DNA of 63,603 nucleotides, the filler included, from Babesia bigemina (Eukaryota), in the NCBI RefSeq assembly GCF_000981445.1. It is 10 parts of 10 records of this genome, joined end to end, with 100 filler letters (N's around TTAATTAATTAA, not from the genome) between each part and the next. Parts side by side here need not be neighbours in the genome. Positions count along the whole stretch, not along the records: positions 1 to 6,340 come from NW_012236955.1; 9 more parts are not named here. One strand, written 5' to 3'. The translations under genes were made by a program, and so were the position numbers. A model generated the notes under the pieces. That model did not search any database and had not been told where the DNA came from. It saw only the letters and a list, made by a program, of their open reading frames with translations. Of the stretch, positions 995 to 55,654 are shown piece by piece (within the stretch, counting starts at the first letter, position 1; the number at the start of each line of letters is the position of its first letter).

Positions 995-3900
995 TTAAGG
1001 TTGTAGATAAAACACCCTGTTAAGCTTGTTAACACGTGCAGCAGCGAGTAGTGATTGAGCAGCAATGCGATGACTCGAGGGACTATGCAGATGCGATTTG
1101 ATGTGGAGCAGGTCGAGGCGGATGACCATGATGTGGAGGAGGTACAACAGAGAGAGGAGCCAGAGGGAAAGGACAAGGTAGGAGAAGGGTTGTCTGATGA
1201 TCCATAAGAAGTTGTCACATTCTTCGAACAGCTTCTTGAAATATTCTGAATTGAGAACTTTCTTCAACTGACTACAGAAATCAGAGCACTTCTTTGGCGA
1301 TTCACTATTCAACGTCGACGCCTCACCAAAGACGAAGCCATACTGGTAGAGCGTTGGTGCGACGCCTTTGCAGTCGACGATAGAAGGGCATTGGCAATTC
1401 GATTGCTTGGTCTTGTCGTTGACCGATCCATGCTCCCCCTTCTTACACTTATCTCCCCTCAGACACCCACGGCAGCCCCAGTCCTGGCAGTTGATGGAGC
1501 AGAAGGAATTGTAGAGATTGTTGAGTAGGTCCCAGAATGACCACGGGAGGTAGATGGCCCAGGAGAGGTAGGTGTTGGATTGTTTCTGGGTTGAATAAAT
1601 ATACGCATCTACGCACAGTGATGTGAGGTAAGGTGCACATTGAAGTTTCTCATCTTTCTTCCGGCATACGGTATTCATCGACAGACTTGACAGGTCAACA
1701 AGTGGACCTAGGTGGTTTTTATCTTGATGAATAGTCTGGCTGCTGCCATACGCATTTGCGAGAGCATTTGTCAGCTTGCTTGTGTCGTCATATAGTTCAA
1801 TGGATTGCTTCTTGATGGCTTCTTCAATGGATTCCATAATGAGGCCTTTGCGTGAAGTTTTCGTACTGTGCCAACCATCAACCAACGATAATACGAAACC
1901 GTAGTGTTCGGGCAATGATGCCGGCGTTTTTGGAGCTAGGCAGAATAGAGACGACAAATAGAAGTTTGAGAAAAGTTTTTCCAAAATTTCACATATATCC
2001 TCACCTCTGCGCGTGGACCCAGAGAAACCCCTGAATCCAAGTGGAGTTAAGCAGGGCATACCTTTTTTGGAAGCGGACGGACAGTTGGCGCAGTCATATT
2101 TGCATCCAATGGAACTCAATTGGTGAGGCTGGTGACCGGGAAGTGAGTCGCTTATGTAGCTCATTAGTGGCGACGTTGGTTGACAATTTGCTTTTGTGCT
2201 AGGTTTGTCGGTTGAGTGGTTGTTACATGGCCATTTGGTTGTCGTGACGTCCTTGCCGTAAAGGCATTGCGACCAGCCACCGTGCATAGCGCTTAGCTTG
2301 CATCGGCTGAACAGATATTGGAGCTGCGGTAACATCCTACGTAGGATATCAACGATGGTATACAAGCATTCCTCCCCTGACGCTGGATACTTTAGCTTAA
2401 GTGAGTTAGTACAGAAGTCAGCTGCGTACGTTGTGAATTCGTCACCGTGACCAGCAATAGTGGCCAACACGTCGTATGAAGTTGAGCAGATATGGTCCAA
2501 CGCTGCATTAATGTCGCCATGTGTTACCCTATTAGGATAGGTATCGGCGTAGTAGGCTTTCAGGTCGTCGAACTCCACTTCGAAGTCAGCATCACCCGTC
2601 TCTATCGGTTTCCGCTTGGGCTTCGTCAGGACGCTAGTCAAACCGTCAGATAGTAACACGGCATACACGTTGTTGTACGGCAAACCCGCGAACCAAACAA
2701 GCATCTCGTACACGGAGCACGGCTGCCTCCTTGCATTGAAAGTGGACAGGTGACATACCTGATTATAGGTTTCTAAGCAATCGAAGAGACTGTTGATTGC
2801 GTGTTTAGTGTCAGCAGAGGAATTAAAAACACACGGATAATTGCCAACGATTTTCACTCGAACTGCCGTACCATTCATCTCGTCACTACGCCTCAGCTCA
2901 CCGTCTTGTGACTTAGAGTCCTTGGCTACGACGTAACCGTAGCGCTTGAATAAACATCCCAGATCGGAAGAGAGACTGATTGTACTTTTGGAGAAACGTC
3001 TGTCACATTCTGCCTTTAACGTACTCATATCCTCAAAAATCATTCCGAGCATGGTAACAAAAACCTTGGCGCAGCACTGAGCGTCGGCGGTTAATGTCTC
3101 TTTATTCTCCTTCGTGTCAACCCACTTCATCGCAGGATACCCCTCGTACTTGTTTATGTACGCGTTGTCAAGCTCATTTACGAGAGCCGTAAGACCGGTC
3201 TTTACTGTGTCAAGTAATTGGGGATTTTGAGGGGCGGCGAACTGCTTGGATGAAAAGGCGACGATTTCTTCTTTTAGCTTCTCATGTTTTGCGGCAGCAA
3301 TATGGTCATAGTGAGCATACGTGGCATACGAAAGATGTTCGAAAAGTTTGCTGAAGGCCTTTTTGATATTCTCGAGCTGAGTATGCTGCGGAGACAGCCT
3401 GTGGATCTGAATCATAATGTAAGTTATTAGCCCAGTTATAACAGCGTTAATATCGGTAAACATGGAGTTCAACCGTTCTTTAATTCTAATTTCGCCTAAG
3501 TTACTATTCATTTTTTTAAGTAAACCTTTTATTCCGTTGTCGAAATCTTTCTTCATTATTTTTTCCATACTAACTGCTCGCTCCTCAACCAATTCTTTTA
3601 AAGCATTCAGGTCTGCATGTCGTTCGTTGGCAAACAAATTTTGGACTTCGGAGGTTATAATGGAAAACGCATCCTTCACTTCCTGGGTAAGATCATTAGC
3701 AAGCGCTCTGATGGCGCGCTCAGCCATTTGATGAGCATCGATGACCGATACATGAACGGCACGTATGGCCTTCTGTATTTCCGCTGCAGCTTTATTGACA
3801 TCTCTTTCCACATTTTCGATTTTCCTTTGAAGCTTATCGAGCTCCGCCTTCAACTGTTGTAACAATGTCTCCGTCTCCGTGCGCAGTTTAGTCACTTCCC

Positions 3901-5548
3901 CTGGCACCTCTTGCATAGTTCTAACTTTGAGAAGCACATGGTCTATAGCTTCTTTGACCTTTGATTTTGTACCACCGTTATCAGCATCCTTCTTGAACAG
4001 ATCTATAGCATTTTGAAGGCCCGCTTTGTTTACACTCATGTCCTTGATATCTTCAATTTCTTTTGATGTTTTAATCCCGTCGATTTTCTTATATACTGTT
4101 TCGTTTGAAATGCCACCGTTCTTGATCTGCGTGGTGAGTTCCTGAAAAACATCGCTGAATTTTTTGCCTTTCGTCGATTTCACTGCCTCGATAGCGTTAT
4201 GCATTTTTTGTTTGAGATCACCGACAAGCTCTTCGTAAAATGTGCCTTTATCGTTTTGTTTTTCACCAAGCTGCTTTAATACATCCTTGAAGTAACCGAA
4301 AAGCCTTGTATCCCACTCCAACTTCTTTATGGCATTAAAAAGTCCACCAGTGCGCATCGCCGTATCAGACCATGCGTGCAAGTTTCGAGTAACCTCTTTA
4401 TCCAGAGCAGTATTGAACTCTTGAATGACCACATTGGCACTTTGGGCGTTACTAGCGCTTCCAATGCCATCCTTAAGCTTATTAATGACTTCCTCAATTG
4501 GACGATCGATCTCAGCCTTTAATTTATTCAAACCTTTGTCCACTTCCGTTCCTAGATTCCCAAGCGCCGCTGTCGCTTCGCCGACCAATGCACAGACTTT
4601 ATTGTACGCCTCTCTAGCCGTAGCCTGAACGGCCTCCTCTAGATTAGAAACTTCCTGCTGCGCTGCTCTAACCTGTACCTCAATGTTGGACCTGATGTTC
4701 TCAACGTCGTCATGTATCGTGGAATTCGTCTTACCACCTTTCGTGTTCTTTTCTTTGTCAAGATCCTGCAATTTCTCCCTTATGACATCAAAATTCTGCA
4801 GAATAACTTTTTTATACTTTTCATCAAAACCTTGATCTGACCCACCAACCAACATATCAACACTTCTTTTAGCTATTTTGACATCAGATTTGACAGTCGT
4901 AAACTGGGAAACCTCCACATCATCGAGATTCAATATATACGTGTAAACCTCATTAAGTTTTTTATCCAACGCCCTTTTAAGTTCCTCTGATTTATTATCA
5001 ATTTGGCCACAGACATACACTTTTTGCTCCACCAACTCGTGATCAACAGCTGCAACCTGTGTCTCGTATTCCTTATTATCGCCAACTTTTTTCAATTGAT
5101 CGATCACCTTTATTATAGGTTCAATTTCATTATTCAATCTGTCATGTAGTGCGCTGTCTAATTCATTAACGTGGTTATATTTAATTTTCGTAACCTCTTT
5201 TTTTAGGTTACGAAGCATAATCTTCCAGGCCTCCAGTTGAGTGGCAAGTGGAGCATTTTCTTGCTTCATCACCTCTTGATAATATGTACCTGCAACAGAA
5301 TTAAGACCACTACTCAACTCACCTAATTTGTCTGTCACTGCTTTTGTCTTCTTGCCTACCTCCCTCTCATACCCCTCCAACCACCCCTTCACCGCGCCGA
5401 CAGCATCCACAAGCCCAGTACGCCCGGAGCCAATTTTTTTATTTACCTCTTCTAGTACTGTTTCTAGTCTCTTATCAAGATGTTTGTCATAAGTTGTCAC
5501 TTCATTCTCATCCTTCACCGCACCAAGCACACCACTCAAAAATCCCAT
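995..5548 (-). CDS. ves1: ves1-like variant surface antigen, copy 1 (A-type tail); 5' leader interrupted, possibly a silent cassette
   Basis: Frame open 995-5701; first ATG 5548 (MGFLSGVL). Motifs YSDLDRLCD, PCSVYEMLVW, GMPCLTPLGFRGFSG, TM, LDLLHIKSH...RVFYLQP. Family assignment from recalled motifs, no search run. Confidence 0.8.
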   Translation of the reverse strand: MGFLSGVLGAVKDENEVTTYDKHLDKRLETVLEEVNKKIGSGRTGLVDAVGAVKGWLEGYEREVGKKTKAVTDKLGELSSGLNSVAGTYYQEVMKQENAPLATQLEAWKIMLRNLKKEVTKIKYNHVNELDSALHDRLNNEIEPIIKVIDQLKKVGDNKEYETQVAAVDHELVEQKVYVCGQIDNKSEELKRALDKKLNEVYTYILNLDDVEVSQFTTVKSDVKIAKRSVDMLVGGSDQGFDEKYKKVILQNFDVIREKLQDLDKEKNTKGGKTNSTIHDDVENIRSNIEVQVRAAQQEVSNLEEAVQATAREAYNKVCALVGEATAALGNLGTEVDKGLNKLKAEIDRPIEEVINKLKDGIGSASNAQSANVVIQEFNTALDKEVTRNLHAWSDTAMRTGGLFNAIKKLEWDTRLFGYFKDVLKQLGEKQNDKGTFYEELVGDLKQKMHNAIEAVKSTKGKKFSDVFQELTTQIKNGGISNETVYKKIDGIKTSKEIEDIKDMSVNKAGLQNAIDLFKKDADNGGTKSKVKEAIDHVLLKVRTMQEVPGEVTKLRTETETLLQQLKAELDKLQRKIENVERDVNKAAAEIQKAIRAVHVSVIDAHQMAERAIRALANDLTQEVKDAFSIITSEVQNLFANERHADLNALKELVEERAVSMEKIMKKDFDNGIKGLLKKMNSNLGEIRIKERLNSMFTDINAVITGLITYIMIQIHRLSPQHTQLENIKKAFSKLFEHLSYATYAHYDHIAAAKHEKLKEEIVAFSSKQFAAPQNPQLLDTVKTGLTALVNELDNAYINKYEGYPAMKWVDTKENKETLTADAQCCAKVFVTMLGMIFEDMSTLKAECDRRFSKSTISLSSDLGCLFKRYGYVVAKDSKSQDGELRRSDEMNGTAVRVKIVGNYPCVFNSSADTKHAINSLFDCLETYNQVCHLSTFNARRQPCSVYEMLVWFAGLPYNNVYAVLLSDGLTSVLTKPKRKPIETGDADFEVEFDDLKAYYADTYPNRVTHGDINAALDHICSTSYDVLATIAGHGDEFTTYAADFCTNSLKLKYPASGEECLYTIVDILRRMLPQLQYLFSRCKLSAMHGGWSQCLYGKDVTTTKWPCNNHSTDKPSTKANCQPTSPLMSYISDSLPGHQPHQLSSIGCKYDCANCPSASKKGMPCLTPLGFRGFSGSTRRGEDICEILEKLFSNFYLSSLFCLAPKTPASLPEHYGFVLSLVDGWHSTKTSRKGLIMESIEEAIKKQSIELYDDTSKLTNALANAYGSSQTIHQDKNHLGPLVDLSSLSMNTVCRKKDEKLQCAPYLTSLCVDAYIYSTQKQSNTYLSWAIYLPWSFWDLLNNLYNSFCSINCQDWGCRGCLRGDKCKKGEHGSVNDKTKQSNCQCPSIVDCKGVAPTLYQYGFVFGEASTLNSESPKKCSDFCSQLKKVLNSEYFKKLFEECDNFLWIIRQPFSYLVLSLWLLSLLYLLHIMVIRLDLLHIKSHLHSPSSHRIAAQSLLAAARVNKLNRVFYLQP

Positions 5549-5853
5549 CACCCCGTCACACAGCCTGTCAAGGTCAGAGTACACAATCCCACTGCCGTCG
5601 TAGCCTTTTGACTCAGGGTTGAAGCCTAGGAAGGTCTCGAGACCAGTGCAGAGGTTATTAAGGATGATAGTAGGCTTATTATTTGAGGTGTTTTTAGCGT
5701 TTTAAATTTTGTCAAATTTCTTGCCAAGCTCCCTAGGCGGCACATGGTCAGGGCAGTGGCAAGAGGTGGAAGAGGGGAAGTGAAGGGTGACAAGGCACAA
5801 GTCATTATTATGGTTTAAGGAGGTCATAGCGTTAATATGGCGAGGTAAATCGA
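5549..5853 (-). other. Conserved cassette leader: ATG 5827 in frame with ORF, TAA at codon 42 (5702-5704)
   Basis: Manual translation MTSLNHNNDLCLVTLHFPSSTSCHCPDHVPPRELGKKFDKI*NAKNTS...GIVYSD. Confidence 0.85.
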
Positions 5854-6340
5854 GCGATGTAGAGTGGGTTAAGGGGCGATGTGGAGTGGGTTAAGGGGCG
5901 ATGTAGAGTGGGTTAAGGGGCGATGTAGAGTGGTTAAAGGGGCGATGTAGAGTGGGTTAGGTAGCGATGTGGAGTGGGTTAAGGAGCGATGTAGAGTGGA
6001 TTAAGGGGCGATGTAAGGTGGGTTAAGGGGCGATGTAGAGTGGATAAAGGAGCGATGTAGAGTGGGTTAAGGGGCGATGTAGAGTGAGTTAGGGAGCGAT
6101 GTAGAGTGGGTTAAGGGGCGATGTAGAGTGGATAAAGGGGCGATGTAGAGTGGATAAGGAGCGATGTGGAGTGGATTAGGGAGCGATGTGGAGTGGGTCA
6201 GGGAGCGATGTAGAGTGAGTAAAGGGGCGATGTAGAGTGGATAAGGAGCGATGTGGAGTGGATTAGGGAGCGATGTGGAGTGGGTTAGGGAGCGATGTGG
6301 AGAAGATAAAGGGGCGATGTAGAGTGGGTTAAGCGGCGAT
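5853..6340. repeat. R22 minisatellite upstream of ves copy 1
   Basis: 22-nt periodicity running into the gap. Confidence 0.97.
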
Positions 6341-6440
6341 NNNNNNNNNNNNNNNNNNNNNNNNNNNNNNNNNNNNNNNNNNNNTTAATTAATTAANNNN
6401 NNNNNNNNNNNNNNNNNNNNNNNNNNNNNNNNNNNNNNNN
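6341..6440. other. Artificial assembly linker (N44-TTAATTAATTAA-N44)
   Basis: Same 100-bp spacer with six-frame stops at 13289-13388, 20364-20463, 27501-27600, 34641-34740, 41818-41917, 49080-49179, 56355-56454, 58922-59021. Confidence 0.99.
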
Positions 6441-6890: not shown

Positions 6891-7194
6891 CGAATTACCT
6901 CGCCATATTACCCCTATGACCTCTATAAACCATCCTAATAACTTGTGCCTTGTCACCCTTCACTTCCCTCCTTCCACCGCTTGCCACTGCCCTGACCATG
7001 TGCCGCCTAGGGAGCTTGACAAGAAATTTGACTAAATTTTGAACCTATAAAACACCTTTAATAATAACCCTACTAACATCCTTACTAATCTCTGCTCTGG
7101 CCTTCAGACTTTCCTCGGCTTCAACTCTGAGTCAAAAGGCTACACTGGCCAGGGGATTGTCTACTCTGACCTTGACAGGCTGTGTGATGCAGTG
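6888..7194 (+). other. Conserved cassette leader: ATG 6916 in frame, TAA at codons 40 (7033) and 45 (7048)
   Basis: MTSINHPNNLCLVTLHFPPSTACHCPDHVPPRELDKKFD*ILNL*NTF...GIVYSD. Confidence 0.85.
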
Positions 7195-10100
7195 ATGGGA
7201 TTTTTGAGTGGTGTGCTTGGTGCGGTGAAGGATGACAATAATGTAAAACACTACGTAAAAAACATTGAACCTAAGCTTAATGATGTTATTTTTAAATTAC
7301 ATGACAGTGTTGGTAAGGGTGCCAGTGCGTTTGGGCCTTGCCTTGTAGAGGTTGGCCGGTGGTTGCATTATTATGATGAGCATGTTAGCAGACGTACCGA
7401 TTACATTAAGACTCATCTAGATAGTCTCGAAAACGAGATAACGCAAAATCAAAATGTCTTCAACACTGAGAAAACAAATAGCCTCGACAAGCAATACGCT
7501 GATTGGGATCGCCGCGCCAAGCTGTATGTGAGTAAGGTGGAAGAGGCTGAAAAGGCAACCAAGAAATTGGATCCAGAACTTCAGCAAATGTTAGAAAAAC
7601 CGATGAGATTAATCAAACAAAGTATTGAACAGTTTAAAAAAATCTGTGAAAATAGAGATTTGGATATTCTGTATGGTGCTGCAGCGGATGAGTTGGCGAA
7701 GCTGAAGGGGAGTGTGGAAAAGCATATCACAGAAAGAATTAAAACATTGGAACAACGTTTATTAAAAACTTTTGAAAAGAATATTCAAGGTGATATTAAC
7801 GATATTAGGAAGGATTTAATCGCTATCGATTCAGATCTGGGCGGTTGGATAACAGTGGCACAGGATATTGTGGAAAATGCTATATTGAAGTGTAATAAAG
7901 TATTGGCAATGGTGAATGAAAATCATGAGAAATACAAACTTTCGAAAAGTGGTCCCGAAATTCTTGTTAAAGCTAAATTATTACACGATAAAGCCATTGA
8001 CCTGAGGGCGGCAGCAGTAGCAGCCAGAGATGCTGTCAAAGAGAACGTCACTAACGCGTTGAAGACTGTCGTCGAAATGAACGGAAAGCTTATGGCCGAT
8101 CTGAATGATATGAAAAGTCATATTTACAATGCCGTTGAAGCTTATGTTAAGAAGACTCTGTTAACTGATGTAAAATCTAAGGTTAGTCAGATTCTAAATG
8201 GCCACCAATCGAATGGTATAAAGCAAATTATAGAGCACGTGAAAGAGCATGCTGCAAAATTTAAGAACTCTGCGACGTTTGGAGATATGGTTCAAGCATG
8301 GGTATGCGAGATATTGCAGGAGAACAAGGATATTGTGAAAAGTAGGCTTGAGACTTATGTTACGCAAACTAAGCTACAGTTCACAAACCGGGAATATCAG
8401 AATCAAGAGAAAGATAAAATTAACGACAAATTCAGGCAGGAGATTGCGAAAGTGATTATGAGTCATCTTGAGAGAGAAGTCTATAGTACGGGCAATGTAA
8501 CATTCGTTGGTGAGTCTACTGGTAAATTCGCAAAGGATTTGCAAACCGTTCAAGCAACTTGCAAACAATTTGCTATGCAGCTTGATAAGAAGGTTAATGC
8601 TGACATATATAGTGAGTTCTTCGACAGCGTAACTAGGGCCATTGAAGAGAAGTTGACAGGTAAGCAACACGGCAACTCGGATCTCCACACAGCCGTCTAC
8701 TACATCCTCAAAGCTCTCCCAAAGAAAGTCCGAGATGCTTCCACGGAACTGAATTTGTTGGTCCGTGACGGCGTCAAACAGGCCAATCTTGGAAACGTGG
8801 AGACGTCCTTTAGTGTTGCGGAAGCAATTAACACCGCATTAGGAGAGGCTGTAGCCACTAGCACGTTATCATCCAATGCGAAACATCCATATGACGTGGA
8901 TAATAAAATTCACGGCGTATTGAACGACAACATTGGGATGAGTACTAAAGGTGTAGCCGTTGACATAACGCACAAGAATTCCATTTTGCAGGGATATAAG
9001 GGGCACGTGTCTCAATCACCAAAGAGCACAACTGCTACGTCAGACATTCCAGAACCAATAGACGGCGCTCTTCCACAGGCGATCAAAGGCGTTAGAGACA
9101 TTGGTCTTCATAGCCTCACAACTGGTGGAGATATCACTAACATCCTAGACTCCGCAAATCACATCTTCGAGCAAGCGTTCGCCGAAATAAAAAAACAGCT
9201 CAAAGGTCTGACAAAGTTGGTTGGTGATGAGGGGCATGTTTTGGAAAGTGAGAAGGGTATCAGAACACTTTTAAATGATTTGAAAAAATTGCTTGGAACG
9301 GGTAGCTATAACGTTTGGGATGTTTTTATCAATTCTCTAGGGAAACTCCACCAGCGCATGAATCGTATCATTGGTGCTAGCGTGGCAAAATTAATCGGAA
9401 AAGCTGCAAATTTCCATGATGTCACTATCCCACAGCAAACGACGCATACTACGAAGGATGTTTTGAATGCTGTTGAAACTCATGTTACTTCGGCTACCAC
9501 CAGCATTGCAATCATAGCGCAAGAATTGTATGCTGATAGGAAAAGAAAAGGGCTTGATGATTTGAAATTACTCTGTGCAACCGAAATCGGTGGCATTGAT
9601 GTTATAATTAAGAGCCATTTCGAATGTGGAATGAAGGGTTTGATACGTCACGTGAAATACGGAATTTCACAATTTTCGAATCTTCCACCATCTCTAAGCG
9701 TACCACATTTGTCATCAAAAATTGCAGACTTCGGAGACATAGTATTAATTTACGTTGGACAGCAGGTTGAAACATCAGATAAGTCTGCAACCTCCCCCCC
9801 AACCACCGACCAACCCACCGACCCAGCCAAACAGCTAACCAAAATCAAAGATGCCTTCGACGAATTGCTTGGACATCTTCATACTCATGAAAATAATCGT
9901 AAATACATCTATGATCATCCTTTCACCGTTAAACTCACCACCCTCAAAAACGCCACTAACGATTTATCCCCCTCCGCCTTCGCCAACCCCCGGCACCCGG
10001 AGCTGCTCGATGCGGTCAGAGCGGGGCTGCAGGGGTTTGTCGAGGAGATGGAGCGGGTGTATGTGAACGGGTATGATGATGGAAACAAAATTAATTGGGA

Positions 10101-12306
10101 TACGAACAAATTGGTCGAACCTAAGTCCGATTCTGAAAATTCTGGTCAAAACGATAAATTAACGCCTTACGGTGAAAAGTTGTCGAAGGTGTTCCTTAGC
10201 ACAATCCAAGTACTATTCCAAGACCTCTGGGAGTTATATAAAGAATGCGCCGAAAATAAAAGTGAACGCATTCGTTTACATAATAAAAGCAAGGATGGCG
10301 TTAAGTTGCCCAATGCACTTGGCGCTTTCTTAGCTAAGCGAGGGTACAAGGTACCAACGGAGGAAGACAAGCAGGACGGGGAGTTGCAGAACAAGGACAA
10401 AATCATGACAGGTGAAAAAATTAAGGAGTTATTTGAGAAGAAGTTAAAATTGCCGGCGATTGCCCTACTTGCAATTAAAGGACCTAGCATACTCAGTGCC
10501 TTATACGAGTACCTCAAAAAGTATTACGAGGTCTGTCACCTGCAGGTTCGACCTTCAACGAAATATCCAGCGAACAGTTATCAGATGCTACAGTGGCTTG
10601 CCGGTCTGCGGTGGAATCCAGTATTTTTGCCAGTGAGGAAATATTTCAGGGAATTATTCCCTATACCTGACAAATTCAAGAACACGCCGCGCGAGAAAAT
10701 TCGCACCGATGACCTTAACCTTGCTGCGACCTCAAACATCAAGGCTCAGCAATTAGCCAGCAAAATGTTGCCAAATGTTTGCTTGCACGCCCACTCGGTT
10801 CTGACTGCCATCCTCGGACATGGACACGCAGGCGGATGTTACGCAGTTGACTACAACACCAACGCGGAAAACTTATTGTACCCTAGCAGAGACAGTGACT
10901 GCTTCGATTTACTCGCAGATATATTAGAAAGATTGTATCACCAGTTCCGATTCCTATGCAGTCAGTGCGAGAACGGCCCTGAGAGCGGTGGATGGGCTGA
11001 TTGTTTGTACGGTAGGCATGTCGCTGGATCAGACTGGCAGTGTAATGAGAAGCAGTGTCCTAACCAATTATGCGACCAAACGGTGAACCAAACACGTAAC
11101 CAAATTCATGAGCAAACGGGTGACCAACACCCCAAGTGCGGTGTGAAATCGCCACTCCAATCGTACCTAGAGGACGGCCTACAAGGTTTCCTGCCACACC
11201 AGTTCAAAAAGCCAGGTTGCAAGCTGGACTGCAGTATGACTAATCACCGCGGCCTACCGTGCAAGACACCAATGGGTTTCGCTGATATCAGTGTAACCGC
11301 TTCTCACACGAAAACGGGCGCTGATCTCATAGAAGTGTTAAAAAATTTCTGTGGTGAAAGATCCCACCTCCGCTCATTATGCGCTTGCATTATATGTCTT
11401 ATGCAAAAACCTCCGCAGACGCTAGGTGACATGTTCGCGTTCTATTATAATTATATATACGGCTGGACCACGCAGGATAGAGAACATAGAGAGGGCGCAT
11501 TTAACAAAGCCGTCAGCGCAGCGCACTTCGAGAACAAATATGATGAGCTCAAAGTGCATAACCTATTTTCCCCTAGTCACTCCGCAGTGTGGCAGGGGCA
11601 TTCGAGCGGTAGTCTCGGCAGTTTCGTATGCACATCAAGAGAATCGGTCGTATGTGGGCCATATCTGTATCCCATCAATAGCGGAATCAGAAATATATAT
11701 GCAGCTAAATATGCCGATAAATACCTATCATGGATTGTTTACCAGACTGAGACATTCTACAATTTACTCAAAAAGTTATATGACGAGTGCAACTCTAACT
11801 GCGGTCCAAAGGGATCCAACTGCTTAACCACATGCTGTGTTGAGGAATGTCCAAGGCTTATAAAACCGCCAACCCCAAAGGAACATCATAGCGATTGTAA
11901 ATCTATAGTCCAATGCAGAAAAGCACTACCAACTTTGTCAAAATACGGGTTCGTGTTTTTGCAGCAAGCCAAGTTAAACGGGAATGAAGGACTCGAGAAA
12001 AAACGCACGTGTCAAAATTTCTGTGCGGCATTCAAAGATGTATTTAATAAGGAGTCTATACTTGTCGAACTTATTAAAAAAATTGATGAATTCATATTTG
12101 CCATCAGGCAGCCGTTTATATGGCTCAATGTCGCGCTCTGGTCACTGTCCCTCTTCTACCTCATCTGCGTAATGGTTGGCAGACTGGATGTGCTCCACAT
12201 ACGCTCACACCTTAGGATACCGGCATCGCACAAGATTACAGCGCAGTCATTGTTGGCTGCAGCGCAAGTCGGAAGGCTTGCCAAAATATCGTATCTACAA
12301 CCGTAA
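7195..12306 (+). CDS. ves1: ves1-like variant surface antigen, copy 2 (B-type tail)
   Basis: 1703 aa from ATG 7195; Cys-rich C-half (KCGVKSPLQSYLEDGL), TM, LDVLHIRSH...AKISYLQP. Confidence 0.8.
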   Translation: MGFLSGVLGAVKDDNNVKHYVKNIEPKLNDVIFKLHDSVGKGASAFGPCLVEVGRWLHYYDEHVSRRTDYIKTHLDSLENEITQNQNVFNTEKTNSLDKQYADWDRRAKLYVSKVEEAEKATKKLDPELQQMLEKPMRLIKQSIEQFKKICENRDLDILYGAAADELAKLKGSVEKHITERIKTLEQRLLKTFEKNIQGDINDIRKDLIAIDSDLGGWITVAQDIVENAILKCNKVLAMVNENHEKYKLSKSGPEILVKAKLLHDKAIDLRAAAVAARDAVKENVTNALKTVVEMNGKLMADLNDMKSHIYNAVEAYVKKTLLTDVKSKVSQILNGHQSNGIKQIIEHVKEHAAKFKNSATFGDMVQAWVCEILQENKDIVKSRLETYVTQTKLQFTNREYQNQEKDKINDKFRQEIAKVIMSHLEREVYSTGNVTFVGESTGKFAKDLQTVQATCKQFAMQLDKKVNADIYSEFFDSVTRAIEEKLTGKQHGNSDLHTAVYYILKALPKKVRDASTELNLLVRDGVKQANLGNVETSFSVAEAINTALGEAVATSTLSSNAKHPYDVDNKIHGVLNDNIGMSTKGVAVDITHKNSILQGYKGHVSQSPKSTTATSDIPEPIDGALPQAIKGVRDIGLHSLTTGGDITNILDSANHIFEQAFAEIKKQLKGLTKLVGDEGHVLESEKGIRTLLNDLKKLLGTGSYNVWDVFINSLGKLHQRMNRIIGASVAKLIGKAANFHDVTIPQQTTHTTKDVLNAVETHVTSATTSIAIIAQELYADRKRKGLDDLKLLCATEIGGIDVIIKSHFECGMKGLIRHVKYGISQFSNLPPSLSVPHLSSKIADFGDIVLIYVGQQVETSDKSATSPPTTDQPTDPAKQLTKIKDAFDELLGHLHTHENNRKYIYDHPFTVKLTTLKNATNDLSPSAFANPRHPELLDAVRAGLQGFVEEMERVYVNGYDDGNKINWDTNKLVEPKSDSENSGQNDKLTPYGEKLSKVFLSTIQVLFQDLWELYKECAENKSERIRLHNKSKDGVKLPNALGAFLAKRGYKVPTEEDKQDGELQNKDKIMTGEKIKELFEKKLKLPAIALLAIKGPSILSALYEYLKKYYEVCHLQVRPSTKYPANSYQMLQWLAGLRWNPVFLPVRKYFRELFPIPDKFKNTPREKIRTDDLNLAATSNIKAQQLASKMLPNVCLHAHSVLTAILGHGHAGGCYAVDYNTNAENLLYPSRDSDCFDLLADILERLYHQFRFLCSQCENGPESGGWADCLYGRHVAGSDWQCNEKQCPNQLCDQTVNQTRNQIHEQTGDQHPKCGVKSPLQSYLEDGLQGFLPHQFKKPGCKLDCSMTNHRGLPCKTPMGFADISVTASHTKTGADLIEVLKNFCGERSHLRSLCACIICLMQKPPQTLGDMFAFYYNYIYGWTTQDREHREGAFNKAVSAAHFENKYDELKVHNLFSPSHSAVWQGHSSGSLGSFVCTSRESVVCGPYLYPINSGIRNIYAAKYADKYLSWIVYQTETFYNLLKKLYDECNSNCGPKGSNCLTTCCVEECPRLIKPPTPKEHHSDCKSIVQCRKALPTLSKYGFVFLQQAKLNGNEGLEKKRTCQNFCAAFKDVFNKESILVELIKKIDEFIFAIRQPFIWLNVALWSLSLFYLICVMVGRLDVLHIRSHLRIPASHKITAQSLLAAAQVGRLAKISYLQP

Positions 12307-15257: not shown

Positions 15258-15504
15258 CTTCCCACTCCCAGTCCCCTCAACCTGCAAACTTATCAATCAC
15301 CTAGCAACGCACTCACCAACTGCAACACTTACACTGCCGCTCCCAGTCCCCTCAACCTGCGAACATATCAATTACCTAAGCAGCACTCACCAACTGCAAC
15401 ACGTACCACTGCCGCTCCCACTCCCCTCAACCTGCGAACATATCAATTACCTAAGCAGCACTCACCAACTGCAACACTACCACTGCCACTCCCAGTCCCC
15501 TCAT
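15258..15504 (-). repeat. ~75-bp tandem repeat R76 with exon/intron-like unit
   Basis: Minus-strand GTGAGT...CAG segments at 15465-15432, 15390-15357, 15316-15282, separated by 41- and 40-nt blocks starting GTTGAGGGG. Confidence 0.85.
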
Positions 15505-20759: not shown

Positions 20760-20810
20760 CGAATTACCTCGCCTTAATACCGCTATGACCTCTTTAGACC
20801 ACAATAATAA

Positions 20811-23800
20811 CTTGCTGATACTGACCATTCTCTCAGTGACGATGCTACTAGAAGAGCCTTGAATGACATTGACTCCAAGCTCATTAGCCTTGGTCACCTT
20901 GCTGGACAGCTTGGCGGATTTGTTGGTCAAAGTGAGAGTGTTAAGAAAGCCGTTGTGAAGGCTATTAAAGCTGTTTTCGACACTAATCCAGACCTTAAAA
21001 ATGACCTAAAACATCTTTACTCTTCTCATGTTACTACCCTTTCTGAGTCTGTCAACTCTGCTGGCAAGGCTGATGGCACCGTTGAAATTGGTCAACTAAA
21101 GCAGAAAGTTGAAAATGAAATTAAGAATTTTACAGATCAATATAATAGCCTTAATGAACCTAATAACCTTCCTAATAACTCTCCTCCTTCCCCCTCGCCC
21201 TCTGCTGAGTCAGACAAATTGCAGTCCAAGTTGGAGGCTTTGAAGAAAGTGAAGGAGCTTTGTGGATTTTTGACTAATTCTAAAAATGCGTCAAATGACC
21301 CTAAAAACCTCTTAGATAATTTATGTGACGGCCTTCAGACTTTCCTCGGCTTCAACTCTGCTACGAAAGGCTACACTGGCGAGGGGATTGTGTACTCTGA
21401 CTTGGACAGGCTGTGTGACGGGGTGATGGGATTTTTGAGTGGTGTTCTTGAGGCGGTGAAAGATGAAAATGAAGTGACAACTTATGATAAATACATACAG
21501 CCAGAGAGTAAAAGGCTTCAAAATGTACTAGACACCTTAAATAAAAATATTGGCACCGGGCGTGATGGGCTTGCGGCGTCTGTCGGCGCGGTGAAGGGGT
21601 GGTTGGGGAAATATAATTCACAAGTTGAGACATTGACTAAGAATGTTACTTCAAAATTAGGTACGTTAAGTACTAAATTATCATCTGATACAGGTGAATA
21701 CTACAAGCAAGTTAACGACAAGAATGACCTGAGTGCGCAGTTGACGATGTGGACCGGGACGCTTGGACGTATCTCAAGTGATCTCCAAGACATACAAAAC
21801 AAACAGATTAATATATTAGATAAGAGACTAAAAGCAGATGTTTTGCATGAAATTAAGCCGATTAATAAATCGGTTGAGTTTTTGCTTGAGTCGGGTAACA
21901 ACAGTGAGTTCAAGGGAAAGGTGGAGCAGGCAGTTGCGAAATTCCGTGAGACCCGTAAAAGTGCTGATCAAGGAGTGGAAGAATGTGTTCAAAAGGTTAC
22001 TGCAGGTTTGAACAAAAAGATTATGGAACTTCTACAGCAGCATACTGAAACCATCAAAAGCACCGAGTTGTACGTCATTGGCAAAATAGACGATGTGCTA
22101 TCTAAAGCGGAGAAGCGAAGTATAACACACATGGAGGCACTCGATGCGGAGTATAAACATAAAATCAAGGAGGCGCACAGTGCCTTGGCAAATGCTCTGA
22201 AGACGCTTCAGAATGGCGCAACTAAAGCAAATGATTTGCATAATGCGATCGAAAAATTACAGGAGAAGTTTCATAAGTTGCAGGGTCACGAGTCAGGCAT
22301 CGGTACAGTTGTCGATACGGAGAGGGATATTAAAGGCATGTTATTTAAATTTGTGGAGGAGGGAGAAAAGTTAAAGAAAACTATTGAAGAGAATATCAGG
22401 CAACCGTTGCATAAATGGCATGATGCCAATAAAGATAAGATGCCTGGTGGGCTTCATCAACTAGGGACTGACGTTGACACTAATATCACCACTTTTAGTT
22501 CGAATTATCCAGCAGTGCATAGTGCCCTGAAACAAATTAAAATGATAGTTCAGCCTATAGAAAACGTGTTGGCCGTCCGCATGAAAAATGTGCTGCCACA
22601 ATCGGACCTTGAAGATTTGTTGGAGCAAGTAAGAATGGAATTGAAAGCATATGCCGGCGCACTTATTGTAGATATGGAGAGTCTCAGAGATAGTTTAGAT
22701 AAAGAATTGAAAGGCTATATTAACAAATTGATGGGCGGTGGCGCGTATGCTGATATAGTGGCGAGATTCGTAAAAACTGTTTTGGACAGCGTTATCGACA
22801 CAATGAGTACCAAGCAAGCAGACGAATCGCATATGGCAAAGCAATTAAAAACACAGCATTCGCAAATGACAATTCCACAAACTCAAATGAAGTTTGACGA
22901 GATTATGACACATTTCAGAGGCGTAGATGTACGAATTACGACTGCTATATCCAAACTGAGTGATAAAGTCAAATTACTTAATCATCATTCAAAATCTACG
23001 AACGAGAATGACCAACAGCTTTCACACCTCACAACAAACTTGCCAAAATCCATGGAACAGGTCAAGAACAAAATAACTGAGGTCATTCAATTGGTAAATA
23101 GCACCAACAGTGGTCTGGTAGGGGCAGTCGCCAGTGCTAAAAAGCTCATTGACGATTTCAACAATGATCGTAAGACCACTTTATCCAATAAATTCGAAGG
23201 TTTAAAATCGGAAATTAGAGCGTTAAGTATGGAATCCGTAAGAAGCGCACTTGACTCAGCCATTGCGGGTGTTAATAAGAAGCTTGAAGATCTGAAGAAG
23301 GTTCCTACTACTATAGAAGACGAAGGCAAATACAGTCTTGCTGTACGAAAAAGCAAATTAATTGAATATATCATTAATCTTAAATCTGACATCATAGGGA
23401 CGATAACAGTGAATATGTCTGAAATAAAGGAGACACTCAACCGTTCCCTCATTAAGTCCGAGAAAGACGCTATCAATCACATCAGACAGCTTGCGGAAAC
23501 GTATAAAAGGAAACTCGAGGATGGTATTAACGCGGTAGAACAACAGATTCAATTGATGTTTGCGGAACAACATAAAGCAGATCTGACGGCTCTACAAAAA
23601 CTGATCGAGCATCAAAAAGCTGAAATTCAAAACATCATCGACAAGGACAGAGCCAGCGGTATCAAGTGCCTGCTCTGGTACATGAATCAAAATCACAATA
23701 CACTTACGGAACTTACCGGCATACAAGAGTCAAAATGGGCAGCAGATAAAATTAGACATTACTTACATCCCCTCTTTACCTACATCATCTCCCAAACCAA

Positions 23801-26297
23801 CCCCTCCTCCCAACTGGTCACCGACCTCCAAGCCCGCACTTACGCCCTCCTCACCCACCTCCACGCGAACAATCGCACCTTCACCTTCGACTCCGGTTTC
23901 CGCTCCCGCCTCCACAACCTGACCACCTATCTCTCCACGTTCAACCCCGCTGCCTTTGCGAACCCGCACCACCCGCAACTCCTGGACGCGCTGAAGGCAG
24001 GGATGCAAGGGCTGGTAGCGGAGATGCAGAAGGCGTATGTTAATAGGTATGACGGACATCCTGAGATGAAGTGGACGACACCGAACAAGGAGAAAGTTGA
24101 CGAACCAACCGACGACGCTACGCGCTGCGCCAAGGTGTTTATGAGCTGCCTGCCGATGTGGGTGGAGGACCTCGGGGAGTTGAAGAGGAGGTGCCAGCAT
24201 AGTTGGAGCAAGAAGGCTATACATCATAAAGATGAAATTGACAAAGAAAACCCCCTTGGTGAGTTCCTCAAGCAGTGCGGTTACCGTGTTCCTAGCAGTC
24301 AGAAGTCGCATCAGGACGGGGAGCTGCAGTGCAGACATACGTTCACTGGCAAACATATCGATGGAATTCTCGGTAAGATCATACAAATGTCGAATCTAGA
24401 ACACGTTCCGCAGTGTAGATCACGGGAGAAAGAATGGAACTTTAATATCATGGATTTCATAGCATGCCTCTACAGTCACCTCGACGAGTATAACGAAGTA
24501 TGTCATCTATCAACGTTATTCTCCAAAAGGCATCCGTGCAGTATATACGAAATACTCTGCTGGTTCTCAGGGCTCCCTCATAGTACCGTATATTCAGCGT
24601 TACCTGGCGGCATCACCAAGCTGCTTGATAAGCCTGAGAATCAACCGATAGATAGCGGTGACTCGGGAATTGAAATTGAGTTCGATGATGAAAACGCGTA
24701 CTACCTGGATGCGCATCCACATAAGTTCACATATAAAGATATCTATGCTGTGATTGAACTAATTTGCTCCAAATCATACGACGTGTTGGCTAGAATCGCC
24801 GGCACAGGTGATGAGCACACCAGGTACGCCTGCGAATACGCAAACAATTCCCTCAAGCTGCATTACCCTAAGACGGCGGACGACTGCTTGCCAATGTTAC
24901 TTGACATGTTACGTAGATTGCTCTCCGTGTTCCGATTCCTCGAATCCAAGTGTAGTTATTCGGCCGTGGAGTTCGGTTGGGCGGACTGCCAGTACGGTAA
25001 AAATGTGCCTACGACCAAATCGCATTGTAACGACAGATCAACGGAGGAAGTAACGTGCCAGGCAAAGTGTAAACCAAAGTGCCAACCAAACAGTCAACCA
25101 AACAGTCAACCAAATTGCCAGCCAACCTCTCCGTTGATGAGTTACTTAAATGACTGTTTGCCGGGTCACTTGCCTCATCAACTCACGAATGTCGGTTGTA
25201 AATCTGAATGTAAAACGTGCCCCGGTAATAAGCCTGGAATGCCCTGCTTAACCCCCCTTGGATTCAGAGGCTTCTCAGGGTCAATTAAAACGGGTGAACA
25301 ATTATGCAGCATTATTAAAGAGATATTAGGCAACGGTATGATTGCGTGTCTATTCACCCTCGCACCCAGGCCTCCAACTAACTTGCCGGAGCACTTCCAG
25401 TTTGCAGTGTCACTTGCCAAGGGACTTAGTGCTTCAAAGCAGAGTAAGGTTGACGGCATTAAAACATTGGCAGACACCATCGCAGATTCAATTACCGATC
25501 GCTCCATCAATCTGTATGAAAATACGGATGAACTTATCGATCCGATTTGCAAAGCTTATGGTAATAAAGGTATAGAGCATCGCAACCAGAAGCGTGATGC
25601 AAAACATAACGTGTCGTGCATTTCACTGACCACTTCCTGCATCAATCAGGAGCATTGCGTCCCTTACCTATCTCCCCTGAGCTGTGACACTTATAATTAC
25701 CTTGTCAACAAGCAATCGAACTCCTACCTATCATGGGCAGTTTACTTGCCGTGGACATTCCATAAATATCTTGCAAGTCTCCTCGACGCGTTTAAGGCTA
25801 TAAGATGTGAAGACTGGGGATGCAGGAACTGCTTGCATACCGATATATGCAAGGGAGAGAGTCATGGTATGCTTAATCCAAAAGGACCTGAAGGAGGATG
25901 CCAATGCGCTTCTGTTGTACATTGCAACGGCGTATCGCCAACGTTATACCAATATGGTTTCACATTCAGGGATGCGCAAAATTTGATATCGTTGAACAGA
26001 AACTGCTTCAATATGCGAAGTCACCTGTACAATGTTGTTAACTCTGACTATTTCACTGACCTATTTAAACAATGCGACATGTTACTGTGGAGAATCAGAG
26101 AACCCTTCTCCTACCTTGTCTTGGCCCTCTGGCTCCTCTCTTTGTTGTACCTCCTCCACATCATGGTCATCCGCCTCGACGTGCTCCACATCAAATCGCA
26201 TTTGCATAGTCCATCATCGCATCGCATCGCTGCTCAATCACTACTCGCCGCTGCACGTGTTAACAAACTGGGCAGGGTGTTTTATCTGCAACCATAA
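20811..26297 (+). CDS. ves1: ves1-like antigen, copy 4 (A-type tail); no ATG for the first ~205 codons, leader ATG out of frame
   Basis: Frame open from 20811 (LADTDHSLSDDATRRALNDIDSKLISLGHLAGQLGGFVG); first ATG 21426; leader ATG 20785 stops after 25 codons. Confidence 0.78.
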   Translation, partial: LADTDHSLSDDATRRALNDIDSKLISLGHLAGQLGGFVGQSESVKKAVVKAIKAVFDTNPDLKNDLKHLYSSHVTTLSESVNSAGKADGTVEIGQLKQKVENEIKNFTDQYNSLNEPNNLPNNSPPSPSPSAESDKLQSKLEALKKVKELCGFLTNSKNASNDPKNLLDNLCDGLQTFLGFNSATKGYTGEGIVYSDLDRLCDGVMGFLSGVLEAVKDENEVTTYDKYIQPESKRLQNVLDTLNKNIGTGRDGLAASVGAVKGWLGKYNSQVETLTKNVTSKLGTLSTKLSSDTGEYYKQVNDKNDLSAQLTMWTGTLGRISSDLQDIQNKQINILDKRLKADVLHEIKPINKSVEFLLESGNNSEFKGKVEQAVAKFRETRKSADQGVEECVQKVTAGLNKKIMELLQQHTETIKSTELYVIGKIDDVLSKAEKRSITHMEALDAEYKHKIKEAHSALANALKTLQNGATKANDLHNAIEKLQEKFHKLQGHESGIGTVVDTERDIKGMLFKFVEEGEKLKKTIEENIRQPLHKWHDANKDKMPGGLHQLGTDVDTNITTFSSNYPAVHSALKQIKMIVQPIENVLAVRMKNVLPQSDLEDLLEQVRMELKAYAGALIVDMESLRDSLDKELKGYINKLMGGGAYADIVARFVKTVLDSVIDTMSTKQADESHMAKQLKTQHSQMTIPQTQMKFDEIMTHFRGVDVRITTAISKLSDKVKLLNHHSKSTNENDQQLSHLTTNLPKSMEQVKNKITEVIQLVNSTNSGLVGAVASAKKLIDDFNNDRKTTLSNKFEGLKSEIRALSMESVRSALDSAIAGVNKKLEDLKKVPTTIEDEGKYSLAVRKSKLIEYIINLKSDIIGTITVNMSEIKETLNRSLIKSEKDAINHIRQLAETYKRKLEDGINAVEQQIQLMFAEQHKADLTALQKLIEHQKAEIQNIIDKDRASGIKCLLWYMNQNHNTLTELTGIQESKWAADKIRHYLHPLFTYIISQTNPSSQLVTDLQARTYALLTHLHANNRTFTFDSGFRSRLHNLTTYLSTFNPAAFANPHHPQLLDALKAGMQGLVAEMQKAYVNRYDGHPEMKWTTPNKEKVDEPTDDATRCAKVFMSCLPMWVEDLGELKRRCQHSWSKKAIHHKDEIDKENPLGEFLKQCGYRVPSSQKSHQDGELQCRHTFTGKHIDGILGKIIQMSNLEHVPQCRSREKEWNFNIMDFIACLYSHLDEYNEVCHLSTLFSKRHPCSIYEILCWFSGLPHSTVYSALPGGITKLLDKPENQPIDSGDSGIEIEFDDENAYYLDAHPHKFTYKDIYAVIELICSKSYDVLARIAGTGDEHTRYACEYANNSLKLHYPKTADDCLPMLLDMLRRLLSVFRFLESKCSYSAVEFGWADCQYGKNVPTTKSHCNDRSTEEVTCQAKCKPKCQPNSQPNSQPNCQPTSPLMSYLNDCLPGHLPHQLTNVGCKSECKTCPGNKPGMPCLTPLGFRGFSGSIKTGEQLCSIIKEILGNGMIACLFTLAPRPPTNLPEHFQFAVSLAKGLSASKQSKVDGIKTLADTIADSITDRSINLYENTDELIDPICKAYGNKGIEHRNQKRDAKHNVSCISLTTSCINQEHCVPYLSPLSCDTYNYLVNKQSNSYLSWAVYLPWTFHKYLASLLDAFKAIRCEDWGCRNCLHTDICKGESHGMLNPKGPEGGCQCASVVHCNGVSPTLYQYGFTFRDAQNLISLNRNCFNMRSHLYNVVNSDYFTDLFKQCDMLLWRIREPFSYLVLALWLLSLLYLLHIMVIRLDVLHIKSHLHSPSSHRIAAQSLLAAARVNKLGRVFYLQP

Positions 26298-28380: not shown

Positions 28381-28441
28381 CTCGAATTACCTTGCCATAA
28401 TACCGCTATGACCTTCTTACACCATTATAATAACTTGTGCC

Positions 28442-35361: not shown

Positions 35362-35667
35362 CTCGAATTACCTCGCCATAATACCGCTATGACCTCTTTA
35401 AACCATAGCAATAACTTGTGCCTTGTCACCCTTCACTTCCCCTCTTCCACCTCTTGCCACTGCCCTGACCATGTGCCGCCTAGGTAGCTTGACAAGAAAT
35501 TTGATGAAATTTAGAACCTTAAAAACACCTCAAATGATAACCCTACTAACATCCTTACTAACCTTTGTACCGGCCTTGAAACTTTCCTCGGCTTCAACAA
35601 AGAGTCCAAAGGCTACACTGGCCAGGGCATTGTCTTCTCCGACTTGGACAGGCTGTGTGACGGGGTG
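35362..35667 (+). other. Conserved cassette leader: ATG 35389 in frame, TAG at codons 33 (35485) and 42 (35512)
   Basis: MTSLNHSNNLCLVTLHFPSSTSCHCPDHVPPR*LDKKFDEI*NLKNTS...GIVFSD. Confidence 0.85.
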
Positions 35668-48330: not shown

Positions 48331-48635
48331 CACTGCATCGCAAAGCCTATCCAGGTCAGAGTACACTATCCCAGTGCCGTCGTAGCCTTTGGACTCAGAG
48401 TTGAAGCCGAGGAATTTTTCGAGGCCAGAGCAGAGGTTAGTAAGGATGTTAGTAGGGTTGTTATTTGAGGTATTTTTAGAGTTTTAAATTTTGTCAAATT
48501 TCTTGTCAAGCTCCCTGGGAGGCACATGGTCAGGGCAGTGGCAAGCGGTGGAAGAGGGGAAGTGAAGGGTGACAAGGCAGGAGTTATTAGGATGGTTTAT
48601 AGAGGTCATAGCGGTATTATGGCGAGGTAATTCAA
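48331..48635 (-). other. Conserved cassette leader: ATG 48609 in frame, TAA at codon 42 (48484-48486)
   Basis: MTSINHPNNSCLVTLHFPSSTACHCPDHVPPRELDKKFDKI*NSKNTS... Confidence 0.85.
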
Positions 48636-55349: not shown

Positions 55350-55654
55350 CACCCCGTCGCACAGCCTGTCCAAGTCAGAGTACACAATCCCCTGGCCAGT
55401 GTAGCCTTTGGAAGCAGAGTTGAAGCCGAGGAAAGTCTCAAGGCCGGTGCAGAGGTAATTTAGGATGTGATTAGGGTTGTTATTTAAGGTATTTTTAAGG
55501 TTTTAAATTTTGTCAAATTTCTTGCCAAGCTTCTCAAGTGGCACATGGTCAGGGCAGTGGCAAGAGGTGGAAGAGGGGAAGAGAAGGGTGACAAGGCACA
55601 AGTTATTGCTATGGTTTATAGAGGTCATAGCGGTATTATGGCGAGGTAATTCGA
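55350..55654 (-). other. Conserved cassette leader: ATG 55628 in frame, TAA at codon 42 (55503-55505)
   Basis: MTSINHSNNLCLVTLLFPSSTSCHCPDHVPLEKLGKKFDKI*NLKNTL... Confidence 0.85.

What the first reader, a model, noticed from the sequence alone, without database searches (positions are those of the whole stretch)
5549..5853. Conserved in-frame stop(s) in the shared leader of five cassettes
Seen: copies 1, 2, 6, 7 and 8 each have an ATG exactly 279 nt upstream of, and in frame with, the MGFLSG ATG. Copies 1, 7, 8 have TAA at codon 42; copy 6 has TAG at codons 33 and 42; copy 2 has TTG at 42 but TAA at 40 and 45. No copy reads through and none has an indel, while the next 1500-1750 codons are stop-free. 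Random decay would scatter stops through the gene. Inference: either a maintained translational lock on silent donors or a ~40-codon uORF/readthrough control comparable to the var2csa uORF. One inherited stop spread by gene conversion is also possible.
Basis: partly seen in the sequence, partly recalled or inferred. Interest (0 to 1): 0.75.

Follow-up and report, generated by a model that had tools for sequence, protein, structure and literature searches.

The report
Headless Babesia surface-antigen gene cassettes
The stop codons are real, but they sit where repeat-flanking DNA joins copies of a cattle-parasite surface-antigen gene that lack their front end, and many sister copies have no stop there, so the stops are likely leftover damage in spare genes that likely serve as donors for antigen switching rather than a control switch.

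Summary
The stops are exactly as described. The genes are Babesia bigemina ves1b variant surface antigens. They are 5'-truncated: complete relatives have about 185-320 residues before the 'MGFLSG' Met, which is internal. Each copy lies on its own short contig between 22-, 20- and 12/24-bp repeat arrays. The leader ATG belongs to a flank shared by all seven copies whose 5' end is in the window; in copies 4 and 5 it is out of frame. Twenty-four distinct database leaders have the same 93 codons with no stop. Codons 1-50, which hold all the stops, show no coding-type constraint; codons 51-93 do. No shared intron removes the stops. Best reading (0.6): inherited or converted damage in the junction of a donor archive, not a var2csa-like uORF. 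Against it: stops exceed a neutral estimate (4 versus 0.74, nominal P 0.007), the five leaders have no indels, and published proteomics lists peptides for some truncated-type genes. The stop is modest; the repeat-flanked cassette archive is the more interesting result and was not found described in my searches.

The parts
5854..6340 (-). 22-bp tandem repeat array upstream of copy 1; runs into the contig end
   Evidence: like arrays precede copies 2, 4, 5, 6, 7, 8
5741..5853 (-). Shared post-repeat flank of copy 1, with the 'leader' ATG at 5827 and codons 1-29; likely non-coding
   Evidence: same flank before copies 4 and 5 over 83 and 110 nt of a 180-nt query, ATG out of frame there; variable columns 5/3/4 by codon position
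5678..5740 (-). Junction remnant of copy 1, codons 30-50, 67% A+T; in all five copies the stops fall in this segment
5702..5704 (-). TAA at codon 42, copy 1
5549..5677 (-). Codons 51-93 of copy 1: conserved ves1b block upstream of the Met, homologous to complete genes, stop-free, third-position bias
   Evidence: 26 of 44 variable columns at third positions, P 4e-4
995..5548 (-). Copy 1 ves1b ORF from the internal Met to the stop; residues 901-1400 are 86-95% identical per 100 residues to complete gene BBBOND_0305380
1..869 (-). 12-bp, 20-bp and 22-bp arrays downstream of copy 1
6916..7194 (+). Copy 2 leader; TAA at 7033-7035 and 7048-7050, sense codon at 42
7195..12306 (+). Copy 2 ves1b ORF from the internal Met
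20785..26297 (+). Copy 4: same flank ATG (20785), out of frame, 25-codon frame; ves1b frame open from 20811 with no ATG before 21426
28408..33871 (+). Copy 5: same flank ATG (28408), out of frame, 20-codon frame; ves1b homology starts about 12 residues into the complete protein
35389..35667 (+). Copy 6 leader; TAG at 35485-35487 and 35512-35514
35668..40836 (+). Copy 6 ves1b ORF from the internal Met
48331..48609 (-). Copy 7 leader; TAA at 48484-48486
43159..48330 (-). Copy 7 ves1b ORF from the internal Met
55350..55628 (-). Copy 8 leader; TAA at 55503-55505
50154..55349 (-). Copy 8 ves1b ORF from the internal Met
6341..6440 (.). Artificial contig linker (N run, TTAATTAATTAA, N run); one of nine in the window

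Best explanation
The stops lie in the junction between a repeat-flanking element and Babesia bigemina ves1b genes that lack the family's front end, and they are likely unselected damage in cassettes that likely act as donors for antigenic variation by gene conversion. Shown: each copy is repeat array, shared flank with an ATG, 5'-truncated ves1b, repeat arrays; the flank joins the gene at three different points in this window; the stops are confined to codons 33-45; coding-type constraint begins at about codon 51; many sister leaders are stop-free. Inferred: only sequence from the conserved block (codon ~51 onward) to the conserved C-terminus is copied into complete, expressed ves1b genes, so it stays open, whereas the junction is left behind and drifts; the codon-42 stop is one allele shared by descent or by conversion among leaders, and the stops at 33, 40 and 45 are separate hits in an A+T-rich, stop-adjacent stretch. 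Not shown: silence of the cassettes, direction of transfer, any role of the repeats.
For: Family: named hits are B. bigemina or B. ovata; BBBOND_0303890 (P0045) is labelled BbigVes1b in the supplement of PMC4066756. Truncation: the Met is internal (residue 185-319) in 24 of 26 proteins with the complete start motif, one has Ile, one was missed by the pattern and has Met at 188; three of four start-motif patterns have no match in six frames and the fourth matches once, in copy 5; in a predicted model of copy 5 the Met (186) lies inside helix 173-196 (mean pLDDT 76, pTM 0.45). Flank: same ATG before 7 of 7 copies with a 5' end, in three different frames; models P0015 and P0075 show the element twice in tandem. 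Stop not fixed: 27 proteins, 24 distinct leaders, same 93 codons, no stop, five different residues at 42. Constraint: variable columns by codon position 11/9/12 in codons 1-50 (P 0.37) versus 8/10/26 in 51-93 (P 4e-4); among 18 open leaders, 10 of 49 columns invariant and mean BLOSUM -1.03 in codons 2-50 versus 29 of 43 and -0.08 in 51-93 (Mann-Whitney P 0.008; neutral estimate about -0.5 to -0.6). Exchange: copy 1 residues 901-1400 match complete gene BBBOND_0305380 at 86-95 of 100 per window while residues 101-800 match nothing above 43. Location: complete genes on chromosome-scale scaffolds 15 of 17, truncated types 8 of 78 (P 5e-10; biased sample). Precedent: truncated B. bovis ves1 genes proposed as conversion donors (PMC2034396); ves1b loci almost never orthologous between strains, 0-3.3% (PMC4066756 Table 2).
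Against: Stops exceed the neutral estimate (4 vs 0.74, nominal P 0.007; 3 vs 0.74, P 0.04). In 7 of 7 window copies the flank ATG is cut off from the main frame. No indel in five leaders despite 37 substitution events in codons 1-50. The direct contrast of third-position share between the two segments is not significant by Fisher test (P 0.10), and codons 30-50 have pN/pS 0.40, between the flank (0.78) and the block (0.27). The proteomics table lists peptides for truncated-type reference genes: BBBOND_0314000 (model starts at the Met; 12 peptides, 7 used for quantitation), BBBOND_0400020 (6, 2) and the open-leader BBBOND_0212310 (6, 1), so silence is not established. Only 1 of 6 copies tested shows a long near-identical tract with a complete gene. 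No DNA of other copies could be read.
Confidence: 0.6

Rival explanations
1. Same donor archive, but stops are weakly favoured: cutting the flank ATG off from the main frame would prevent leaky expression of archived antigens.
For: Excess of stops over neutral estimate; copy 2, which lacks the codon-42 stop, has two others; 7 of 7 window copies disconnected by stop or frame; 46 of 138 B. bigemina models start at the Met.
Against: 24 distinct open leaders; a stop 150 nt or more upstream leaves the downstream Met available; the excess is post hoc and rests on 4 sites; copy 5 shows that a Met-start model needs no stop.
Confidence: 0.15
2. The cassettes are genes for a short VESA1b form, translated from the flank ATG when the leader is open or from the MGFLSG Met by reinitiation after a 20-41-codon uORF (var2csa-like control or readthrough).
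For: Main ORFs are intact over 1500-1800 codons with pN/pS 0.51 in the last 300 codons; fixed 279-nt spacing without indels; peptides assigned to truncated-type genes, including one with an open leader; the ATG is present in all seven copies.
Against: The Met is internal and mid-helix in the model; codons 51-93 would be untranslated yet show coding-type constraint; upstream frame length, frame and stop identity vary (TAA, TAG, tandem stops), unlike a readthrough signal; amino-acid changes in open leaders are radical; 9 of 9 matched genes among 18 rows labelled BbigVes1b have the complete start motif; the proteomics used another strain than the reference and gives no peptide positions.
Confidence: 0.15
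3. The stops are removed by splicing (a local intron, or a first exon hidden in or beyond the unassembled repeat arrays), or are assembly errors.
For: Some database models bypass the region with what look like predicted introns (P0121, P0171, P0182, P0149); contigs break in the 22-bp arrays, so upstream DNA is unseen; B. bovis ves1 genes have short 5' introns (PMC2034396).
Against: No in-frame GT-AG pair removes the stops in all 5 copies; best is 4 of 5, with donors GTGCC or GTCAC, and each such intron deletes part of the conserved block. Contigs with 22-bp arrays at both ends contain no start motif. Stops differ in type and place across five separate contigs. Only GT donors within the 279-nt leader were enumerated.
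Confidence: 0.1

Closest known systems
BbigVes1b family of Babesia bigemina (Jackson et al. 2014, PMC4066756)
   Same: Same conserved block and C-terminal membrane-anchor region; hits carry BBBOND locus tags, one labelled BbigVes1b; family known to recombine and to be poorly assembled at subtelomeres.
   Different: In the passages and sections I read the paper does not describe 5' truncation ('truncat' 0 occurrences in the main text), the shared flank, leader stops or the repeat arrays; its figures were not visible.
Truncated B. bovis ves1 genes as 'functional pseudogene' donors for segmental gene conversion (PMC2034396; review PMC6630957)
   Same: Truncated ves1 copies outside expression loci proposed as donors; conversion from silent loci shown for B. 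bovis.
   Different: Here the truncated copies share one flank and a fixed repeat architecture and keep full-length open frames; B. bovis ves1 genes are mostly interstitial and are not orthologous to ves1a/ves1b.
Trypanosoma brucei silent VSG archive with 70-bp repeats (PMC4858185, PMC8612549; listing and abstract start only)
   Same: Works like it if the best reading holds: repeat-flanked silent antigen genes copied into an expression site.
   Different: Unrelated sequence; no expression site with the same repeats was identified here; these cassettes lack the N-terminus, and the repeat's role is untested.
var2csa uORF of Plasmodium falciparum (PMC2603286)
   Same: An upstream ATG-stop frame ahead of a variant surface antigen ORF.
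   Different: var2csa has a 360-bp uORF conserved across isolates, in the transcribed leader of a complete gene, with reporter-proven repression. Here the frame is 20-41 codons, polymorphic, often open, and precedes an internal Met.

Membership tests
BbigVes1b | Homology to genes labelled BbigVes1b | tested here: met
   (copy 1 shares 86-95% windows with BBBOND_0305380, labelled BbigVes1b)
BbigVes1b | Conserved C-terminal domain with one membrane-spanning stretch | tested here: met
   All nine long ORFs end in the shared hydrophobic stretch and tail; read by eye, no membrane predictor run; Pfam gave no family above cut-off
BbigVes1b (complete gene) | Complete N-terminus with the start motif, about 185-320 residues before the conserved Met | tested here: not met
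   copy 5 lacks about 12 residues, the five leader copies about 140 or more
Gene-conversion donor pseudogenes (B. bovis ves1 type) | Truncated, cannot make the complete protein in place | tested here: met
Gene-conversion donor pseudogenes (B. bovis ves1 type) | Sequence tracts shared with complete, expressed loci | tested here: inconclusive
   1 of 6 copies has a long tract shared with a complete gene; direction unknown
Gene-conversion donor pseudogenes (B. bovis ves1 type) | Transcriptionally silent | not testable with these tools
   No RNA holder listed; one search lists peptides for some truncated-type reference genes
var2csa-type uORF control | uORF of conserved length and position | tested here: not met
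   20, 25, 32, 39, 41, 41, 41 codons in seven copies, three frames; open in 24 leaders
var2csa-type uORF control | Downstream ATG is the true start of a complete gene | tested here: not met
var2csa-type uORF control | uORF lies in the mRNA, is translated and represses the main ORF | not testable with these tools
   needs 5' RACE, ribosome profiling, reporter assay
Programmed stop-codon readthrough | One conserved stop with conserved context and coding constraint on both sides | tested here: not met
   TAA, TAG and tandem stops at four positions; no third-position bias upstream
VSG-type repeat-guided archive | Same repeats at silent cassettes and at the expression site | not testable with these tools
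   Repeats at cassettes shown; DNA of complete loci not available

The most novel reading that the evidence does not exclude
Babesia bigemina keeps a trypanosome-like archive of headless, full-length-open ves1b cassettes in repeat-built subtelomeric arrays, copies them into complete ves1b genes from the conserved block onward, and selection favours stops or frame breaks after the flank ATG as a safety catch against premature exposure of archived antigens.
Probability: 0.15. Interest if true: 0.75.

Novelty: new variant of a known kind. Interest (0 to 1): 0.4.

Why it matters
How B. bigemina varies its surface antigen has not been worked out as it has for B. bovis (my reading of PMC4066756 and PMC6630957, passages only). 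A defined class of headless, repeat-flanked ves1b cassettes gives a testable donor pool, a predicted 5' boundary for conversion (about codon 51 of the leader) and an explanation for why many database gene models start at an internal Met or in non-coding flank. The stop itself is a small part of this and probably not a regulatory device.

Tried and rejected
Whole genome: none held. DNA pattern from the leader in metagenome contigs: 0 matches. Sequencing runs: no RNA holder listed; four listed RNA runs laid 0 reads, about 1-2% of each run read, which is no test. Pfam: no family above its cut-off for 7 window ORFs or 5 relatives. Local intron: no GT-AG pair shared by all five. Leader peptide against 1.84 billion representatives: 23 hits, 20 are this leader (6 of them unnamed), 3 are weak repetitive proteins; no leader was seen among the 41 B. 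ovata proteins held. First stop simulation was biased low and was replaced. My first reading that only complete genes are seen by proteomics was withdrawn. In one search one protein (P0012) was misfiled as a Met start (48, not 49); the open-leader class did not trigger, so those 18 are inside the 32 'flank' proteins. An alignment of the leader with copy 4 hinted at a frame-shifted origin of codons 33-45 but is too weak to use. Earlier scan findings: none by sequence or words. Literature searches for a description of this architecture listed none; the library lacks most subscription journals.

Full report
Observation. They align without gaps and the ORFs behind the last stop run 1568-1782 codons. 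The window is a pseudomolecule: nine N-TTAATTAATTAA-N linkers join ten contig pieces, and the contigs mostly end in tandem repeats. No whole genome is held, so other copies could be studied only as proteins.

Identity. A search with the first 80 residues after the stop of copy 1 gave 162 proteins, 120 listed; all named ones are Babesia bigemina or B. ovata. One, BBBOND_0303890, is labelled BbigVes1b in the supplement of PMC4066756. Pfam names no family above cut-off. I therefore file the genes as ves1b, the variant erythrocyte surface antigen family of B. bigemina.

The genes are headless. Of 185 proteins held begin with the family's complete start motif. In 24 of these the Met of MGFL is internal, at residue 185-319; one has Ile there and one escaped the pattern but has the Met at 188. 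The start motif is absent from all six frames of the window except for its tail end in copy 5. In an AlphaFold2 model of 320 residues of copy 5 (36-sequence alignment, mean pLDDT 76, pTM 0.45) the Met falls inside one helix, 173-196; this is a prediction of moderate confidence. So MGFLSG is not the family's start.

The leader is a composite. The flank that follows the 22-bp array, with its ATG, also precedes copies 4 and 5, where it joins the gene farther upstream and the ATG is out of frame, giving 25- and 20-codon frames. Database models P0015 and P0075 show the same element twice in tandem (these models may contain predicted introns). Codons 1-29 are therefore flank. Codons 30-50 are an A+T-rich junction (67%) with weak likeness to ves1b. 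Codons 51-93 are the conserved ves1b block.

The stop is not fixed. Across, 27 proteins with 24 distinct leaders have the same 93 codons with no stop and five different residues at position 42 (the filter required the 93-codon spacing; 7 of the 27 carry no source name). This sample is biased to open copies, because only they are annotated with the leader. In the other direction, 46 of 138 B. bigemina models start at the Met, but copy 5 shows that a Met start needs no stop. The genome-wide share of stopped leaders is unknown.

Constraint changes at about codon 51. Among the five leaders, variable columns by codon position are 11/9/12 in codons 1-50 (third-position excess P 0.37) and 8/10/26 in codons 51-93 (P 4e-4); the direct contrast is not significant (Fisher P 0.10). 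pN/pS is 0.78, 0.40 and 0.27 for codons 1-29, 30-50 and 51-93. Among 18 open leaders, codons 2-50 have 10 of 49 invariant columns and radical changes (mean BLOSUM -1.03), codons 51-93 have 29 of 43 and -0.08 (P 0.008); single-base neutral changes average about -0.5 to -0.6. The block between the stops and the Met thus behaves as protein-coding although neither ATG can translate it in these five copies. The simplest account is exchange with complete genes. In support, residues 901-1400 of copy 1 match complete gene BBBOND_0305380 at 86-95 of 100 per window while residues 101-800 match nothing above 43; this was seen for 1 of 6 copies tested. Complete genes lie on chromosome-scale scaffolds in 15 of 17 cases, truncated types in 8 of 78; 43 further B. 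bigemina models fit neither class and were left out of that contrast.

Results against this reading. Four stop-bearing sites compare with 0.74 expected from 37 substitution events (nominal P 0.007; P 0.04 for three). The test is post hoc and small, but it keeps a selected lock possible. All seven flank ATGs in the window are cut off from the main frame. The five leaders have no indel. In the proteomics table of PMC4066756, 9 of 9 matched genes among 18 rows labelled BbigVes1b have the complete start, but rows labelled 'hypothetical protein' include BBBOND_0314000 and BBBOND_0400020, whose models start at the Met, and the open-leader BBBOND_0212310. The spectra came from a different strain than the reference and the table gives no peptide positions, so it fits both direct expression and conversion of cassette sequence into an expressed gene.

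Splicing and error. No in-frame GT-AG pair within the leader removes the stops in all five copies; the best pairs work in four, have weak donors and delete part of the conserved block. Stops of two kinds at four positions on five contigs make a common sequencing error unlikely, but raw reads were not available: no RNA holder was listed and four laid runs gave no reads, which is no test.

Comparison. It is a member of BbigVes1b by homology but not a complete gene. It works most like the truncated B. bovis ves1 genes proposed as conversion donors (PMC2034396, passages; PMC6630957, passages) and, in layout, like the repeat-flanked VSG archive of trypanosomes (PMC4858185, PMC8612549, listing and abstract start only). 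It fails two tested features of the var2csa uORF, conserved length and a true downstream start (PMC2603286, passages). Of PMC4066756 I read passages, sections 22 (first part), 23, 24, 25 and matching supplement rows; figures and supplement file 1 were not seen and may show gene structures. Passages of PMC5660447 and PMC10463595 note B. bigemina-specific ves1b clusters or related families but not this layout. Six searches listed no description of headless repeat-flanked ves1b cassettes; the library omits most subscription journals.

Verdict. Observation confirmed. The stop is most likely shared damage in a junction that is not under coding constraint (0.6); a selected lock (0.15), direct expression with uORF control (0.15) and splicing or error (0.1) remain. 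Novelty: new variant of a known kind, carried by the cassette architecture rather than by the stop. Interest 0.4.

Noticed in passing
window 6341-6440 and eight further linkers to 59021: The window is ten contig pieces joined by artificial N-TTAATTAATTAA-N linkers, mostly 6.3-7.2 kb each; order and orientation of cassettes carry no biology.
   Followed up: yes
window 22-bp arrays, e.g. 1-500, 5854-6340, 55653-56349: The 13 arrays hold TTAGGG hexamers (3-13 each) and 28 loose four-G-run motifs on the strand opposite the genes, against 6 such motifs in the rest of the window; telomere-like or quadruplex role untested, no shuffle control.
   Followed up: partly
window 14787-15296 (-): 169-codon frame without a start: Cys-rich stretch, Ser/Thr-rich stretch, hydrophobic segment and short tail; looks like the 3' end of another ves-like gene (recalled resemblance to ves1a, not tested).
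   Followed up: no
window 15265-15503 and 58200-58671: 75-76-bp tandem repeat within a conserved ~1-kb spacer found downstream of two cassettes that also carry the 24-bp array.
   Followed up: no
3' ends of the nine long ORFs and 56455-57213: Two C-terminal tail types and two 3' flank types occur; the 24-bp array follows one flank type and the 12-bp array the other, and copy 5 mixes tail and flank features, suggesting recombination near the stop codon.
   Followed up: no
proteins P0121, P0149, P0171, P0182, P0015, P0075: Several public B. bigemina gene models begin in the non-coding flank or in a shifted frame and seem to use predicted introns to reach the ORF; their N-termini are probably annotation artefacts.
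   Followed up: partly
PMC4066756 supplement file 3: Several truncated-type ves1b genes at chromosome ends are listed as 'hypothetical protein' and so were not among the 18 rows labelled BbigVes1b, though they have peptides.
   Followed up: partly
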